Below are positions 15,646 to 19,196 of a stretch of DNA of 64,000 bases, piece by piece. The DNA lies in contig CAIKKG010000027.1 in the NCBI GenBank assembly GCA_903827975.1, forward strand, positions 5,403-69,402. The letters are read 5' to 3'. A program made the translations under genes and the position numbers. This DNA is from an uncultured bacterium (GTDB lineage: Bacteria > Patescibacteriota > Minisyncoccia > UBA6257 > GWB1-50-10). Below the pieces are notes generated by a model. It ran no database searches and was not told the DNA's origin. It saw nothing but the letters and a program-made list of their open reading frames with translations. The first letter of the stretch is position 1. Each line of letters starts with the position of its first letter.

Positions 15646-15812
15646 AAATCCCATAAATGGGGATTTCTTGGAGCGGGTAAGGGGAATCTCCTTCGCCTCT
15701 CAACTCGTCGTCACTCATCTCGGGCTAGGCACCGCCTCACTGTGTGCACTACTGAGTGCACACAGTTCCGGCGTCCGATTCCCCTAAGCAAAATCCCCAT
15801 AAATGGGGATTT
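15646..15812 (-). repeat. tRNA-Gly-associated 3' module, core family 2 (copy D)
   Basis: Reading 5' to 3' on the minus strand, downstream of the tRNA: terminator 15812-15790, inverted T-arm copy (plus 15774-15785, tccgattcccct), core 15773-15691, direct repeat 15690-15668 (gattccccttacccgctccaag) and a duplicated terminator 15667-15646. Confidence 0.6.
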
Positions 15813-15814
15813 CT

Positions 15815-15888
15815 TGGAGCGGGTAAGGGGAATCGGACCCCTGGCGCCAGTTTGGAAAACTGGGGTATTACCACTATACGATACCCGC
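15815..15888 (-). tRNA. tRNA-Gly(TCC) with encoded CCA. T-loop reads TCCGATT (C at position 55)
   Basis: Minus strand GCGGGTA-TC-GTAT-AGTGGTA-ATAC-C-CCAGT-TTTCCAA-ACTGG-CGCC-AGGGG-TCCGATT-CCCCT-TACCCGC-TCCA. U73 discriminator is typical of Gly. Confidence 0.6.
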
Positions 15889-16013
15889 GACTCCTTGTTT
15901 GACTAGAATAGGATACAAAATTATTCGAGAACCCGCAAGATGTATAAGGGCCTAAATAATTGAATTAGTTTTGTTTTTGACTTATGATGGGTTGAGACAA
16001 ATAAGGTAAATAT

Positions 16014-16622
16014 ATGTTAAATAACAAGCAAACAAAGATGGTTGCGGTTGGCAGTGTGCTTTTCCTTGTGTTGCTTTTTACATCTCTATACTTCATGCGT
16101 AGTGGCGGCGGATCGCCAGAAGCAAATCTTCCTCAGACATTTTTGCTTTCGAGAAAAACAGCAGCACTTATTAGTCAGAATATTGTAGACCTCACAAATA
16201 AAACAGGTGAGAAAATTTCTTCTGCAAATACAGCAGACTTAGCAGGTGATAGAGCTCGAGCAAGTTCGCTTATTTTAGAGGCTCAAAATACGAATGTTGA
16301 AGCAAGTCGCGCCGCATCTCAATTGGCGGGACAGTTGAAAGTTCTTACTGAGTCACTTGCAACAATGAGTTCAGTGAGCAGTCAGAGACTTGCGTATGAA
16401 GCAGTTGCAACGGAGTTGGCATTGGTTTCTGAGTTTGTTGTTTATACGCAAAACTTAAATGAATTTTTGGAGAAACTTCTAGTGTCTATGGAAACCGATA
16501 CAAAAGTAAGTAAAGCGGACATCGCATCGTCTCTCACGGCTACAAATAAAAGCGCGAGAAAAATAAATTCACTGAATGCTGAGTTTAGCGACAGGATGGC
16601 GAAGTTAGATAAATCGTTCTAA
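16014..16622 (+). CDS. membrane-anchored hypothetical protein
   Basis: N-terminal TM. Terminator at 16631-16652. Confidence 0.45.
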   Translation: MLNNKQTKMVAVGSVLFLVLLFTSLYFMRSGGGSPEANLPQTFLLSRKTAALISQNIVDLTNKTGEKISSANTADLAGDRARASSLILEAQNTNVEASRAASQLAGQLKVLTESLATMSSVSSQRLAYEAVATELALVSEFVVYTQNLNEFLEKLLVSMETDTKVSKADIASSLTATNKSARKINSLNAEFSDRMAKLDKSF

Positions 16623-16660
16623 ATATCAAAAAAGCCCTTTCGGGCTTTTTTGATACTGTG

Positions 16661-16732
16661 TCCCCTCGGAGGGAATCGAACCCCCATCAAGACCTTAGAA
16701 GAGTCCTGCTTTATCCATTAAGCTACGAGGGG
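16661..16732 (-). tRNA. tRNA-Arg(TCT)
   Basis: Minus strand CCCCTCG-TA-GCTT-AATGGATA-AAGC-A-GGACT-CTTCTAA-GGTCT-TGAT-GGGGG-TTCGATT-CCCTC-CGAGGGG-A. Confidence 0.6.
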
Positions 16733-16788
16733 TTAATGAACAAAATTGATTCTAAACGAAAAGTAATGTAATTTAAAGACCTGTGGTT

Positions 16789-16859
16789 CGGAGCGTAGTA
16801 TACCGGCAGTACACCTACCTTGGGCGTAGGCAGACCGGGTTCAATTCCCGGCGCTCCGA
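16789..16859 (+). tRNA. tRNA-Pro(TGG), C1:G72
   Basis: CGGAGCG...CCTAC-CTTGGGC-GTAGG...CCGGG-TTCAATT-CCCGG-CGCTCCG-A. Confidence 0.7.
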
Positions 16860-16900
16860 CTAACAAAAAAATAAGACCTAATTCGGGTCTTATTTTTTAT

Positions 16901-17067
16901 CCCGCGCTGGGAATTGAACGGGAAGGGGGTCGGGGAAACAGGAGTTTCCACGTGGCGGAAGTATTGAAACCGCTGGGTTTCAAAAATTTTGCGAATACAA
17001 AATTTGTTTACTTCCCGGCGCTCCGACTAACAAAAAAATAAGACCTAATTCGGGTCTTATTTTTTTA
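16901..17067 (+). repeat. tRNA-Pro-associated 3' module, core family 1 (copy A)
   Basis: Terminator 16871-16898. Inverted copy of the tRNA 3' part, cccgcgctgggaattgaac, at 16901-16919. Core at 16920-17010. 55-bp direct repeat of the tRNA 3' end plus terminator at 17011-17067. Confidence 0.6.
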
Positions 17068-17114
17068 TCCTCATTTGGATTTTGTTAACACCTCAATAAA
17101 AAAAACTCAACGTA

Positions 17115-17888
17115 CTAACGCGTTGGCCTTTTAATTAATAGACTTATAAAGAATATCGCTGAACTTACGAGCGCGGTTGCGAAGCTCGGATTAATTGGAT
17201 AAATGCGTGATATTACGAGACCTGAGAGAAGTGCAATGACCGCAAGTCCAATACTAAGAGTTATAAATCCTTTAAATGACCCGGCAATGTTTTTTGCGGT
17301 TACTGATGGAATTATAAGAAGTGCACTCATTAGTAAAACTCCCACAAAACTAATTCCGACCGCGATTGTGAGTGCAATAAGAATAAGTAGTAGCAATTCC
17401 ATTTTTGGTTGAGAGATGCGAGATGATGTTGCAAGGTCTGGTGCAATTGATGATAGGGCGAGTGGTTTCAAAAGATAAAGAGCTGTTGCGATTATTCCGA
17501 TTGATATCACGGCCTGAGCTAGAGCCTGTTCTAGGGTTATATTTTGAGCATTGCCGAAAAATGCTTCTAGTAAATCTTGCTCTGGTATTAAGAGTGCGCC
17601 CAAGGAAAGTGCAGTTACAAATAGCACTCCAGTAATTGATTCAACGGCTAGCCTTGTTTTCATCTCTATATACCAAATAAGAAGAACACCAACAAATAGC
17701 AGTGCCACTCCACCAAACAAAGGATTAAATTTAAATACTATTCCAATTGCTATGCCTGGAAGTGCGACGTGTGAGAGTGCATCAGAAAGTAGCGTCATCT
17801 TTCTAAGTGTTAGAAGTGAACCTACAATTCCACTTGCTGCAGCAACTAGAATTCCCGAAAGAGTTGTTAGTGTTAAAAGTTCTGTCAT
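17115..17888 (-). CDS. metal ABC transporter permease (ABC-3/ZnuB-MntB-like)
   Basis: 257 aa, about 8 TM segments. Adjacent to the ATPase gene. Confidence 0.6.
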   Translation of the reverse strand: MTELLTLTTLSGILVAAASGIVGSLLTLRKMTLLSDALSHVALPGIAIGIVFKFNPLFGGVALLFVGVLLIWYIEMKTRLAVESITGVLFVTALSLGALLIPEQDLLEAFFGNAQNITLEQALAQAVISIGIIATALYLLKPLALSSIAPDLATSSRISQPKMELLLLILIALTIAVGISFVGVLLMSALLIIPSVTAKNIAGSFKGFITLSIGLAVIALLSGLVISRIYPINPSFATALVSSAIFFISLLIKRPTR

Positions 17889-17892
17889 GATA

Positions 17893-18633
17893 TTAGGCTT
17901 TGTCTTCGTGCTCGGGTTTCGCGTCTATTTTTATTGTTCCATAATCGTGATCATGGTGGAAAAATGTCTGGTCCTTGTATAGAGAGGAAAGCTTATCAAC
18001 TGTAAGCTCATCTTCCGGTTGTCCGTAGCAGACCATTTTCTGATTTAAACAAAGCACATTATTTGCATATCGATACACAGCATGAAGGTCATGCGAAATA
18101 ATTAGTAATGCAACACCAATTGAGTCTTGTAGTGTGTGTAATAAAGAGTAGATAGATTCCTGGCCAACAACGTCAACGTTTTCTGTTGGTTCATCAAATA
18201 AAAGAATCTGAGGATTATCTAAAAGCGACCACGCGAGTAATATTCTTTGGAGCTGTCCACTGGAGAGGTGTGCAAGTTTGCGACTGAGCCAACTCGTATC
18301 CACTTTTACCAACTTCAATGCTTTCTCATTCGTCATCTCACGAGTTGGTTTAAGGTTAAGAAATTCAGCAACCGTCATCGGAAGATATAAATCTACATGA
18401 AAGCGTTGCGGTAGGTATCCTACGCGGATGTTTGGCGCCCATTCTATCTTGCCCTCGGTTGGTTTTATTATTCCAAGTAGTGTTTTCAAGAGAACTGACT
18501 TGCCGGCGCCGTTTGGACCGATGATTGCGAGCACTTGTTCCTTGTCTAATGAAAAAGAAACATTGCTCAATATCTTATTGTCTCCAATGGTTACCGAGAG
18601 GTCTTCAACTTTTAATAATTGTGTTTCACTCAT
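17893..18633 (-). CDS. metal ABC transporter ATP-binding protein (ZnuC-like)
   Basis: Walker A GPNGAGKS, signature LSSGQ, His/Asp-rich C-terminal tail. Confidence 0.7.
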   Translation of the reverse strand: MSETQLLKVEDLSVTIGDNKILSNVSFSLDKEQVLAIIGPNGAGKSVLLKTLLGIIKPTEGKIEWAPNIRVGYLPQRFHVDLYLPMTVAEFLNLKPTREMTNEKALKLVKVDTSWLSRKLAHLSSGQLQRILLAWSLLDNPQILLFDEPTENVDVVGQESIYSLLHTLQDSIGVALLIISHDLHAVYRYANNVLCLNQKMVCYGQPEDELTVDKLSSLYKDQTFFHHDHDYGTIKIDAKPEHEDKA

Positions 18634-18686
18634 TTTGACTTATGACTATGTTATTGATTATACTGGAATTGTTTGAAAAACGAATA

Positions 18687-18981
18687 GCCGCGGTAGCTCA
18701 GCGGTAGAGCGCAGCCCTAAACTCTTTGGGGCGCGACTCGGTAACGAGTCGATGAAAATCGGGTGAACTCGGGGAAAACTTTCTTAATGGAAAAAAGAAA
18801 ACAATCCCGAACCAAGCTCTGTAGGGCATAAAGGTTACAGAGAAGGCGTAGAGACTAGCGGGTGAGTCCCAACAATAATCCTGCAAATAGCGCCCGACAT
18901 CCTAAATATTAGGATGATGAGATAGTCCAAATTCAGCCTTGGAAGAGGCTGGCGTCGGGGGTTCAACTCCCTCCCGCGGCA
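18687..18981 (+). tRNA. tRNA (anticodon inferred GAA, Phe) interrupted by a group I intron in the anticodon loop
   Basis: 5' exon GCCGCGG-TA-GCTC-AGCGGTA-GAGC-G-CAGCC-CT ends at 18718. 3' exon GAAGA-GGCTG-GCGTC-GGGGG-TTCAACT-CCCTC-CCGCGGC-A runs 18942-18981. Confidence 0.6.
18719..18941 (+). ncRNA. group I intron (about 223 nt)
   Basis: P7 strands: R-like GTAGAGACTAGC at 18848-18859 and S-like GAGATAGTCC at 18919-18928. P1 pairs the exon end CAGCCCU with intronic GGGGCG(C)G, with a U-G at the splice site. Terminal G at 18941. Hairpin GACTCG-GTAA-CGAGTC. Confidence 0.55.
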
Positions 18982-18985
18982 CAAT

Positions 18986-19008
18986 AAAAACCCCGTAAGG
19001 GGTTTTTT
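18986..19008 (+). terminator. rho-independent terminator after the tRNA
   Basis: aaaaaccccgtaaggggtttttt. Confidence 0.6.
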
Positions 19009-19196
19009 ATTTGCCACGGGAAACCTCGCAATTTATTGCGAAGTGTTCGGGAGTTGAACGCCGGAGCGTATCACGCTCAGTAGTGTGTGATGCGAGGCGG
19101 TGCCCAACCCGAGGTGAGTGAAGACGAACTGAGAGGTTAGGGCAACTCCCTCCCGCGGCACAATAAAAACCCCGTCGATTGACGGGGTTTTGTTTT
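19009..19196 (+). repeat. tRNA-Phe-associated 3' module, core family 2 (copy C)
   Basis: Palindrome cgcaatttattgcg. Inverted T-loop copy cgggagttgaac at 19047-19058. Core 19059-19143 is homologous to 15691-15773 in reverse complement. Direct repeat of the tRNA 3' end, caactccctcccgcggcacaataaaaaccccgt, at 19144-19176, then a second terminator ending at 19196. Confidence 0.6.

What the first reader, a model, noticed from the sequence alone, without database searches (positions are those of the whole stretch)
15691..19143. Core family 2: the tRNA-Gly and tRNA-Phe modules share a roughly 100-nt homologous core in the same orientation relative to their tRNA
The reverse complement of 15691-15785 aligns with 19047-19143 at roughly 75% identity. 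Gly, minus sense: aggggaatcggacgccggaactgtgtgcactcagtagtgcacacagtgaggcggtgcctagcccgagatgagtgacgacgagttgagaggcgaaggagattcccc. Phe, plus sense: cgggagttgaacgccggagcgtatcacgctcagtagtgtgtgatgcgaggcggtgcccaacccgaggtgagtgaagacgaactgagaggttagggcaactccc. Only the terminal segments differ systematically, and each matches the T-arm of its own neighbouring tRNA. This is what is expected if a common element carries target-specific ends, or acquires them on insertion. The Gly copy contains a perfect 13-bp hairpin (cactgtgtgcact/agtgcacacagtg). The Phe copy has diverged at that spot.
Basis: seen in the sequence. Interest (0 to 1): 0.7.

Follow-up and report, generated by a model that had tools for sequence, protein, structure and literature searches.

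The report
Mini-elements inserted in tRNA T-loops
The two look-alike 100-nt segments are real copies of a conserved, folded element that sits just downstream of tRNA genes in Patescibacteria (ultra-small "CPR" bacteria). Each copy is flanked by an inverted and a direct copy of the 3' part of its own tRNA, which is the footprint of an undescribed family of tiny insertions at one fixed position of the tRNA T-loop.

Summary
A covariance model finds 24 copies in Patescibacteria loci, nearly all 110 nt long and, wherever the upstream sequence is held and annotated, just downstream of a tRNA gene.

The core forms two helices, P2 and P3, with strong covariation (94% of cells paired against 79% shuffled). 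Its 17 G-U pairs fit the tRNA-sense strand only. It matches no Rfam family and was not found in plasmid, phage or viral collections.

Anatomy: intact tRNA, terminator, reverse complement of tRNA positions 53-65 (up to 76), core, direct copy of tRNA 57-76. At least three other core families share these boundaries. About two thirds of tRNA genes in these loci carry the inverted arm. Tandem arrays, right-end remnants and three alleles at tRNA-Phe (mini-module, module plus 1.3-kb cargo, 5.5-kb gene island) show DNA-level turnover.

Best reading: integrase-less miniature integrative cassettes that enter at T-loop position 56|57, leave an intact tRNA, and use a folded single strand with a target-complementary arm. 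The enzyme and the chemistry are unknown. The main rival is that the core is a functional RNA. It looks undescribed. Interest is high and mechanistic confidence moderate.

The parts
15815..15888 (-). Intact tRNA-Gly(UCC), T-loop TCCGATT. Its positions 57-76 form the proximal copy of the repeated segment.
   Evidence: ARAGORN; Rfam tRNA, 59 bits.
15790..15812 (-). Proximal intrinsic terminator hairpin (AAATCCCCATTTATGGGGATTTT). It is the apex of the palindrome formed by the tRNA 3' half and the inverted arm.
   Evidence: Sequence. Single-strand DNA fold of G53 to arm: -21.9 kcal/mol, z = -7.9.
15773..15785 (-). Inverted arm ('guide') AGGGGAATCGGAC, the exact reverse complement of tRNA-Gly positions 53-65.
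   Evidence: 0 mismatches; the match ends after rc(53).
15689..15772 (-). Family-2 core. P2 is about 15733-15773 (CGCC / variable 12-bp hairpin / GGCG). P3 is about 15690-15729 (GCCUAGCCC..tandem G.A..GAGAGGCGAAGG).
   Evidence: Covariance model hit, 116.5 bits; RNAalifold and pair counts; fold z = -5.4.
15669..15688 (-). Distal direct copy of tRNA-Gly positions 57-76 (GATTCCCCTTACCCGCTCCA), read as the displaced or duplicated tRNA 3' end.
15646..15666 (-). Distal copy of the terminator, differing from the proximal one by a 1-nt deletion.
18687..18981 (+). tRNA-Phe(GAA) interrupted by a group I intron between U33 and G34 (intron about 18719-18941). The T-arm is at 18957-18973.
   Evidence: Rfam RF00028, 70 bits; exon boundaries read from the sequence.
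18986..19008 (+). Proximal terminator (AAAAACCCCGTAAGGGGTTTTTT).
   Evidence: part of a single-strand hairpin with z = -8.7.
19011..19043 (+). Decayed inverted copy of the acceptor 3' strand (TTGCCACGGGA) followed by a small hairpin (CTCGCAATTTATTGCGAAG). The hairpin corresponds to the family-2 'hpA' hairpin seen in other genomes.
19048..19059 (+). Inverted arm CGGGAGTTGAAC. Its 3' 11 nt (GGGAGTTGAAC) are the reverse complement of tRNA-Phe positions 53-63; the 5' C does not match rc(64).
19060..19143 (+). Family-2 core. P2 is about 19059-19099 and P3 about 19103-19142.
   Evidence: Covariance model hit, 112.8 bits.
19144..19191 (+). Distal direct copy of tRNA-Phe positions 57-73 plus trailer (AACTCCCTCCCGCGGCACAATAAAAACCCCGT), then the host terminator (19166-19191).

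Best explanation
The two segments are copies of one family ('family 2') of tiny, integrase-less integrative cassettes specific to Patescibacteria. These cassettes occupy one fixed site in tRNA genes, between T-loop positions 56 and 57, immediately 3' of the near-universal GTTC.

Shown:
- The unit reads: tRNA 57-76, terminator, reverse complement of 76/65-53 ending in GAAC, P2, P3.
- An intact tRNA lies on the left. A partial tRNA 3' end (57-76), which is often decayed, lies on the right.
- Units occur singly, in tandem, as arrays of right-end remnants, and with protein-gene cargo.
- The same tRNA carries different core families in different genomes.
- One tRNA (Phe) has three alleles among near-identical strains.
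- P2 and P3 are maintained by compensatory changes on the tRNA-sense strand only.

Inferred:
- The cassette moves as, or is processed as, a folded single strand. The tRNA-sense DNA strand is the more likely form; read-through RNA is not excluded.
- The inverted arm pairs with 57-65 at either end of the unit, and through GAAC with the GTTC of the target. This brings both junctions to one place.
- A trans-encoded enzyme (a tyrosine recombinase acting on hairpins as in integron attC or CTXphi, or an HUH nuclease as in IS200/IS605) breaks and joins at 56|57.
- The tRNA stays functional either because the cassette carries a replacement 3' end or because that end is recopied from the target.
- P2 belongs to the left-end module and P3 to the right-end module. 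The 100-nt 'core' is therefore a cargo-less fusion of the two ends.
For: Family and structure:
- 24 copies, nearly all 110 nt long; each one whose upstream sequence is held and annotated lies behind a tRNA.
- Covariation: 94% of cells paired against 79% shuffled (0 of 500 shuffles reach it) and 31-47% in slid controls. There are 17 G-U cells in P3 and none of the A-C type.

Boundaries:
- They are constant across four core families. The inverted arm stops after rc(53) in 14 cases and after rc(54) in 9, never further. The direct copy starts at position 57 in 12 cases.
- The arm follows GTCC T-loops, reading GGAC.

Frequency: by eye, about 24 of 33 tRNA genes in the surveyed loci carry a clear inverted copy.

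Palindromes: G53 to the end of the arm folds as single-stranded DNA with z = -8 to -16 in 10 of 10 cases.

Turnover:
- L026 Val carries a perfect tandem of a 144-nt unit.
- L005 Gly carries 4-5 right-end remnants, each with a partial tRNA end.
- At tRNA-Phe, the window and L030 have the mini-module. L031 has 1.3 kb of cargo starting exactly after P2. L029 and L055 have their own terminator, a 15-nt arm and a 5.5-kb three-gene island.

Origin of the proximal end: distal copies differ from the current tRNA end (L026 Val, L026 His, L005 Pro).

DNA level rather than mature tRNA:
- The arm is complementary to the genomic trailer, not to CCA.
- Terminators precede the modules and no sigma-70-like promoter does.
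Against: - No recombinase, HUH nuclease or reverse transcriptase lies in the window or next to any module.
- No free or circular form was seen, and there is no copy in viral, phage or plasmid collections.
- No clean empty site was recovered.
- In the window the proximal and distal copies are identical over 33-55 nt, including the terminator. This fits a target duplication as well as it fits an element-borne end.
- The family-2 side hairpin hpA sits at the acceptor/T-stem junction within a nucleotide, and P3 contains two tandem G.A motifs. Both features look more like a designed RNA than like a DNA recombination site.
- How the arm is reprogrammed for a new tRNA is unexplained.
- The L055 island ends with only GCACAAT repeated, not with a 57-76 copy.
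Confidence: 0.45

Rival explanations
1. The core is a functional non-coding RNA.

It would be made by read-through of the tRNA terminator. It would be presented in a tRNA-like scaffold: an acceptor-like stem, the hpA side arm, and a T-stem extended by 4 bp, with P2/P3 replacing the T-loop. RNase P and the tRNA 3'-end machinery would trim it. The DNA mobility would then only be the way this RNA gene spreads, and the RNA would do something else, such as bind a protein through its G.A motifs.
For: - Covariation with many G-U pairs on the sense strand, and invariant junction nucleotides and internal loops.
- hpA lies at the position where the body of a tRNA leaves the acceptor/T minihelix, give or take one nucleotide.
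- RNA folds have z = -5.4 and -4.1 on the sense strand, against -3.8 and -1.4 on the antisense strand.
Against: - Strong intrinsic terminators lie between the tRNA and the module, and no promoter is seen.
- The 5' strand of the 'acceptor stem' is missing in the window's Gly copy and decayed in the Phe copy.
- Distal 3' copies are often decayed or absent (L026 Leu, L028).
- The arm pairs with trailer sequence beyond position 73, which a tRNA mimic would not need.
- Several unrelated core families have the same flanks.
Confidence: 0.25
2. The core is a small ribozyme with a guide that works like a group I internal guide sequence.

The 3' part of the arm (GAAC) would bind the 5' exon end GUUC(53-56), and its 5' part would bind 57-65. 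The RNA would then exchange or insert at 56|57. This could be trans-splicing of a fresh 3' end onto a tRNA, or reverse splicing as the first step of mobility.
For: - The order of the guide segments is that of P10/P1 in group I introns.
- In the three-way-junction fold, the junction A|R57 lies opposite the unpaired GAA.
- About 85 nt are conserved, with invariant junctions.
- Patescibacteria are rich in group I introns (PMC13011429). One sits in this very tRNA-Phe.
Against: - There is no match to any ribozyme or intron model in Rfam, even at E = 10.
- Eighty-five nucleotides are far less than a group I core.
- Other families with quite different cores share the same boundaries.
- The arm matches the gene trailer, not the mature tRNA.
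- Fixing an RNA event in DNA needs a reverse transcriptase. None was found in the window or beside any module, and PMC13011429 reports group II introns, which encode one, as absent from Patescibacteria.
Confidence: 0.08
3. The modules are inert scars.

They would be attR-proximal remnants of ordinary integrase-encoding prophages or islands that once sat at these tRNA genes. Internal deletion would have removed everything but the ends. The conserved 'core' would be leftover attP-arm DNA.
For: - Direct repeats of tRNA 3' ends and arrays of partial tRNA ends are the classical footprint of integrase-mediated integration.
- A gene island uses the same left end.
- The region of the Gly module differs between strains at about 5%, against 0.75% elsewhere.
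Against: - A double-stranded protein-binding arm would not show strand-specific compensatory changes with G-U pairs.
- Length is nearly constant at 110 nt (109-117), and conservation is near-identical across distant lineages (Kaiserbacteria, Jorgensenbacteria, Paceibacterota) and behind ten tRNA species.
- No integrase was seen in any of the loci.
- Independent deletions would not give the same P2-UG-P3 joint each time.
Confidence: 0.12

Closest known systems
tRNA-gene-targeting genomic islands and prophages (tyrosine integrases, T-loop sublocation class; from my own knowledge of Williams 2002)
   Same: - Insertion inside the T-loop.
- An intact tRNA at one junction and a partial tRNA 3' end at the other.
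- Tandem arrays.
- Variable cargo at a hotspot.
   Different: - No integrase in the element.
- Units are as small as about 145-190 nt.
- An inverted copy of the tRNA 3' half lies next to the restored tRNA.
- There is no T-stem 5' arm at the distal junction.
- The ends are structured on one strand only.
Integron gene cassettes (attC sites) and CTXphi-type integration of folded single-stranded DNA (from my own knowledge)
   Same: - Imperfect palindromes conserved as structure on one strand.
- Two inverted half-sites some tens of nt apart that fold into a duplex resembling the target.
- Arrays of small promoterless units at one site.
- Recombinase encoded elsewhere.
   Different: - The target is a tRNA T-loop, not attI or dif.
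- The R-box consensus is matched in only 6 of 7 positions, and the junction is at 56|57, not G|TT.
- The sequence of P3 is strongly conserved, unlike attC.
- No IntI or attI platform is present.
IS200/IS605 family and its miniature derivatives (PATEs) (from my own knowledge)
   Same: - Strand-specific hairpins next to both ends.
- Insertion immediately 3' of a fixed tetranucleotide (here GTTC).
- An internal tetranucleotide complementary to that flank (GAAC), which changes with the target (GGAC for GTCC).
- Cargo-less miniature forms.
   Different: - The complementary arm is 13-24 nt long and tRNA-specific.
- A copy of the target's 3' side is present on both sides.
- No TnpA or TnpB is seen.
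- The two end hairpins are unlike each other.
Group I introns in Patescibacteria tRNA genes (PMC13011429)
   Same: - Same host phylum and same class of target gene.
- The guide order resembles P10/P1.
   Different: - Site is T-loop 56|57, not the anticodon loop.
- There is no group I catalytic core.
- The tRNA is not interrupted.
- A terminator separates the tRNA from the element.

Membership tests
Integrase-mediated tRNA-targeting island/prophage | Direct repeat of the tRNA 3' segment at both ends, with an intact tRNA at one junction | tested here: met
   Window Gly 44 nt, Pro 55 nt, Phe 33 nt; other loci 16-20 nt. The tRNAs are intact by ARAGORN and Rfam.
Integrase-mediated tRNA-targeting island/prophage | A tyrosine or serine recombinase gene inside the element | tested here: not met
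   Units are 145-190 nt with no ORF. The 5.5-kb island carries an AAA_23 ATPase, DUF3160 and PGA_cap only. There is no recombinase in the window.
Integrase-mediated tRNA-targeting island/prophage | Contiguous core site at attR: inverted arm, 6-8 bp overlap, arm | tested here: not met
   At the distal junction the core's own 3' end (..GGA..GTGACC..GAGA) abuts R57. No T-stem 5'-like arm or positions 54-56 are present.
Integron cassette / attC | R'' RYYYAAC and R' GTTRRRY boxes with the crossover at G|TT | tested here: not met
   ATCGAAC / GTTCGAT match 6 of 7 positions. The junction is 56|57, which is 3 nt away from G|TT.
Integron cassette / attC | Single-strand-specific folded palindrome | tested here: met
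   Single-strand DNA folds have z = -8 to -16. Wobble pairs occur on the sense strand only.
Integron cassette / attC | Array adjacent to intI and attI | tested here: not met
   Arrays start at a tRNA gene and no intI is nearby.
IS200/IS605-type single-strand transposon (PATE) | Insertion 3' of a fixed tetranucleotide that pairs with an internal guide | tested here: inconclusive
   The left boundary always follows GTTC or GTCC, and the unit contains GAAC or GGAC. The arm is much longer than 4 nt, however, and the target's 3' side is duplicated.
IS200/IS605-type single-strand transposon (PATE) | Y1 HUH transposase (TnpA) in the genome | not testable with these tools
   Only 64 kb of this genome and 1-20-kb pieces of the others are held. 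None was seen in them.
MITE (DDE transposon derivative) | The same terminal inverted repeat in all copies and a fixed-length target duplication | tested here: not met
   The arms differ with each tRNA. The repeat length varies from 16 to 55 nt.
Group I intron (RF00028) or any Rfam family | Match to the covariance model | tested here: not met
   No hit on the modules at gathering score or at E = 10. The best overlapping hit is rnk_pseudo at 35 bits against a 55-bit cutoff.

The most novel reading that the evidence does not exclude
This is a new class of guide-bearing mobile element. It is either a single-strand DNA cassette or a small ribozyme. It targets the universal T-loop of tRNA genes by 13-24 nt of base pairing and breaks and joins at 56|57. 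It rewrites the tRNA 3' end, so it can sit behind most tRNA genes of a reduced genome without harm. Its specificity would be programmable by the arm sequence, and its conserved P2/P3 fold would be the active or recognised part.
Probability: 0.3. Interest if true: 0.85.

Novelty: new variant of a known kind. Interest (0 to 1): 0.72.

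Why it matters
If this is right, most tRNA genes of many Patescibacteria have had their 3' ends and terminators rewritten by tiny elements that carry no enzyme of their own. That would be a hidden layer of genome dynamics in organisms thought to be poor in mobile DNA.

The fixed 56|57 junction, the 4-nt offset between the inverted and direct copies, and an arm that mirrors each target point to recognition by base pairing. 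This is the principle behind IS200/IS605 ends, bridge RNAs and introns, and it is of interest for programmable insertion.

The family-2 core is also a well-supported structured motif that is missing from Rfam.

In practice, these modules produce partial-tRNA repeats, strain-level hotspots and assembly breaks. Several contigs end at the Phe module.

Tried and rejected
- Known RNA families: Rfam at gathering score and at E = 10 gave nothing on the modules.
- A third copy at 29.3 kb: the covariance model finds none. That GC-rich region also matches no Rfam family.
- Viral, phage or plasmid copies that might show an unintegrated form: there were none. The two viral pattern hits are chance matches.
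- A recombinase or nuclease encoded in cis: the window and all neighbours were annotated and none was found.
- Primer-binding-site idea (arm pairs with the mature tRNA 3' end for reverse transcription): rejected, because the arm continues into the genomic trailer and does not match CCA.
- MITE with a target-site duplication: rejected, because the arms vary with the tRNA and repeat lengths vary.
- Tandem duplication of the tRNA followed by an insertion: rejected. The 5' arm is the complement of the T-loop (AATTGAA, AATCGGA), not a copy of it, and it is complementary to the 3' strand where the T-stem has a G.U pair (L029).
- Hammerhead, twister and hairpin ribozyme cores: compared by eye and via Rfam, with no fit.
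- Purifying selection from strain comparison: uninformative. Twelve of 15 intergenic differences cluster around the Gly module, which may reflect an imported segment.
- Literature: five full-text searches found no description.
- L040, a copy without a recognisable upstream tRNA, was not resolved.

Full report
**1.

The reverse complement of 15691-15785 aligns with 19047-19143 at 69 identical positions in 98 columns. The score is 37, against -7.3 ± 4.6 (maximum 7) for 1000 shuffles (alignment). A 20-nt motif from the core occurs twice in the window against none expected.

One copy lies downstream of tRNA-Gly(UCC) (15815-15888, minus strand). The other lies downstream of tRNA-Phe(GAA) (18687-18981, plus strand), which is interrupted by a group I intron. 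Both copies have the orientation of their tRNA.

Three points need correcting:
- The Gly hairpin is 12 bp, not 13.
- The Phe copy keeps the hairpin through compensatory changes.
- There is no third copy at 29.3 kb.

**2. It is a real family of structured elements, confined so far to Patescibacteria**

Exact-pattern scans found the core in seven Patescibacteria genomes. These include Paceibacterota, Kaiserbacteria, Jorgensenbacteria and Minisyncoccia. Nine metagenome contigs also carry it. The 21 other genome hits are in high-GC genomes and look like chance.

A covariance model built from 17 copies finds 24 copies in the held sequence. All 17 aligned copies are 109-117 nt long, 13 of them exactly 110.

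The consensus has two helices, P2 and P3. They lie between a variable 5' arm and a variable 3' tail.
- Of 25 pairs in P2 and P3, 13 show changes on both sides.
- 94% of cells are paired, against 79% after shuffling (0 of 500 shuffles reach it) and 31-47% when the partners are slid.
- The covariation score is 0.49 against 0.20.
- P3 holds 17 G-U cells and only one non-pair. The fold therefore exists on the tRNA-sense strand only.

No Rfam family matches, even at E = 10. Nothing similar is in the phage, plasmid or viral collections.

**3. Anatomy**

Read in the sense of the tRNA, every locus has the same order:
- the intact tRNA;
- a terminator or spacer;
- the reverse complement of the tRNA's own positions 53-65 (in many copies 53-76 and on into the trailer);
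- the core;
- a direct copy of the tRNA from position 57 to its 3' end, in the window continuing through the terminator.

The arm is an inverted copy, not a direct one. It reads AATTGAA for a TTCAATT loop and AATCGGA for a TCCGATT loop. It carries A opposite T64 where the T-stem has a G.U pair.

Across all core families the arm stops after rc(53) in 14 cases or after rc(54) in 9, and never goes further. The direct copy starts at 57 in 12 cases, and the rest are 1-2 nt off. So the unit is bounded by 56|57, immediately 3' of GTTC. The inverted copy reaches 3-4 nt further than the direct one.

Behind the two tRNAs with GTCC (window Gly, L010 Ala) the arm ends in GGAC. These positions have no partner in the module's own 3' tail.

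From G53 of the intact tRNA through the terminator to the end of the arm, the strand folds into a long hairpin. The z-score is -8 to -16 in 10 of 10 cases, using DNA parameters.

In most family-2 copies a small conserved hairpin (A-GCAAGC..GCTTGC-GT, 'hpA') interrupts the arm at the acceptor/T-stem boundary, within a nucleotide.

**4. This is one family among several, and the feature is common**

By eye from the alignment scores, about 24 of 33 tRNA genes in the window and the Patescibacteria loci carry a clear inverted copy 26-75 nt behind the gene.

Other cores use the same flanks:
- 'Family 1' is in the window behind tRNA-Pro at 16904-17026. It is also behind tRNA-His at 21337-21410, where only the left half is present.
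- 'Family 3' ends in GTACTG, then a hairpin with loop CTGTAAG, then GA|.
- 'Type b' ends in CTCGTGACC|GA.

P2 is shared by family 2 and by type b'. The right-hand hairpin differs between families and always ends 0-1 nt before R57. This suggests a left-end module (tRNA end, terminator, arm, P2) and a right-end module.

**5. Evidence for DNA-level turnover**

- L026 tRNA-Val is followed by two identical 144-nt units.
- L005 tRNA-Gly is followed by one full unit and then three or four right-end remnants of different families, each with a partial tRNA end.
- L019 and L005 Pro carry two units of different families.
- The same tRNA species carries different families in different genomes.

Strains that are more than 99% identical show three alleles behind tRNA-Phe:
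- The window and L030 have the family-2 mini-module.
- L031 has the same module up to the end of P2, followed by 1.3 kb with two bPH_2 genes.
- L029, L032 and L055 have a different terminator, a 15-nt arm, and then a promoter and three genes (5.5 kb). These end in a long GC-rich hairpin and abut the host terminator.

Distal tRNA ends often differ from the current tRNA end (L026 Val, L026 His, L005 Pro). The proximal end was therefore not simply inherited in place.

Copies within one genome share derived characters. Both window copies have T at column 91, and both L026 copies have a GGCG loop (for the second L026 copy).

**6. What argues for DNA rather than RNA, and what does not**

For DNA:
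- The arm is complementary to the gene's trailer, not to CCA (L026 Arg, L033, L037).
- Strong terminators stand between the tRNA and the module. No sigma-70-like promoter precedes the modules, although the tRNA-Phe promoter is a good consensus match.
- Gene islands use the same left end.

For RNA:
- G-U pairs.
- Two tandem G.A motifs and invariant junction nucleotides in P3.
- The placement of hpA where a tRNA body would emerge.

The two readings are not exclusive.

**7. Mechanism proposed (inferred)**

A trans-encoded enzyme acts on the folded tRNA-sense strand. The arm pairs with 57-65 of either the proximal or the distal copy, and through GAAC with GTTC of the target. Both junctions can then be brought to the same place, and breakage and joining occur at 56|57.

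This logic is closest to three known systems: IS200/IS605 ends (guide tetranucleotide plus subterminal hairpins), integron attC, and CTXphi hairpin sites.

The 3-4-nt offset between the two copies, and the identical 33-55-nt duplications in the window, would also fit a nick at 56|57 followed by re-synthesis of the tRNA end from the bottom strand.

I could not decide between 'end carried' and 'end recopied'. I also could not explain how the arm is reset for a new tRNA.

**8. What is missing**

- No recombinase, HUH nuclease or reverse transcriptase is encoded in the window or beside any module.
- No circular form and no empty site were seen.
- Five literature searches found no description. The one relevant paper treats group I introns of Patescibacteria tRNA genes and reports no group II introns there (PMC13011429).

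**9. Verdict**

The element appears undescribed. I file it as a new variant of tRNA-targeting integrative elements, with 0.45 confidence in the general model and much less in the enzymology. I put a 0.3 chance on its being a new guide-based class.

Noticed in passing
window 18687-18981: tRNA-Phe(GAA) is split by a group I intron of about 223 nt between U33 and G34 (about 18719-18941; the last intron base is G). ARAGORN misses this tRNA.
   Followed up: partly
window 29030-29530: A GC-rich (about 60%) stretch of some 500 nt lies between two terminators in a 40% GC genome. It contains no credible ORF and matches no Rfam family even at E = 1. It is conserved in the strain variants and is probably an unannotated structured RNA. 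It is not a copy of the family-2 core.
   Followed up: partly
window 16904-17026 and 21337-21410: 'Family 1' modules have the same flanks as family 2. A complete one lies behind tRNA-Pro: inverted arm 16904-16919, core, then a direct copy from 17012 followed by a second identical terminator. A left half only lies behind tRNA-His, with no distal tRNA copy anywhere in the window.
   Followed up: partly
window 5880-6012: Downstream of tRNA-Leu(CAG) there is a degenerate copy of its 3' end (GTCTCCGCCACTGCCA against GTCCCGCTCTGCCCA) about 115 nt away, plus a hairpin resembling the tail of family 1. This is possibly a decayed module.
   Followed up: no
window 15815-15888; L010 730-802; L001 5182-5254: Several tRNAs (Gly-UCC, Ala-UGC, Phe) have the T-loop TCCGATT. 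That puts C at position 55, where U (pseudouridine) is almost universal.
   Followed up: no
window 18986-19008 versus L055 about 8440-8465: The loop of the window's proximal tRNA-Phe terminator (CCCC-GTAA-GGGG) is the reverse complement of the loop of the host terminator in the island allele (CCCC-TTAC-GGGG). This is a flip, as expected if the palindrome was copied or inverted.
   Followed up: no
L055 8090-8400: The right end of the 5.5-kb island behind tRNA-Phe holds a long imperfect hairpin of about 190 nt (GCCCCGCCAACTGCCCGAGACC ... GGTAGTCCGAGGCGGGTGGCGGGGC). Larger elements therefore also have a structured right end.
   Followed up: no
L048, L049, L050 (contig ends near window 19200): Several independent assemblies break just beside the tRNA-Phe module. 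This fits strain heterogeneity or repeats at this hotspot.
   Followed up: no
window 5523-5750 of L030 versus L029 (window about 15540-15765): Twelve of the 15 intergenic differences between two strains over 9 kb fall in 230 nt around and beyond the Gly module. This is about 5% divergence against 0.75% elsewhere, and may mark a recombination import.
   Followed up: partly
L040 1650-1900 (minus strand): This family-2 copy has an arm and a distal tail that match each other, but no tRNA is recognised upstream. The upstream sequence has a different T-arm-like segment and the same trailer. It may be a chimeric or intron-containing tRNA.
   Followed up: partly
window 42000-59600: A low-GC (35-38%) polysaccharide gene cluster: asparagine synthase, glycosyltransferases, dTDP-sugar enzymes, flippases and a sugar transferase. 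It is unrelated to the finding.
   Followed up: partly
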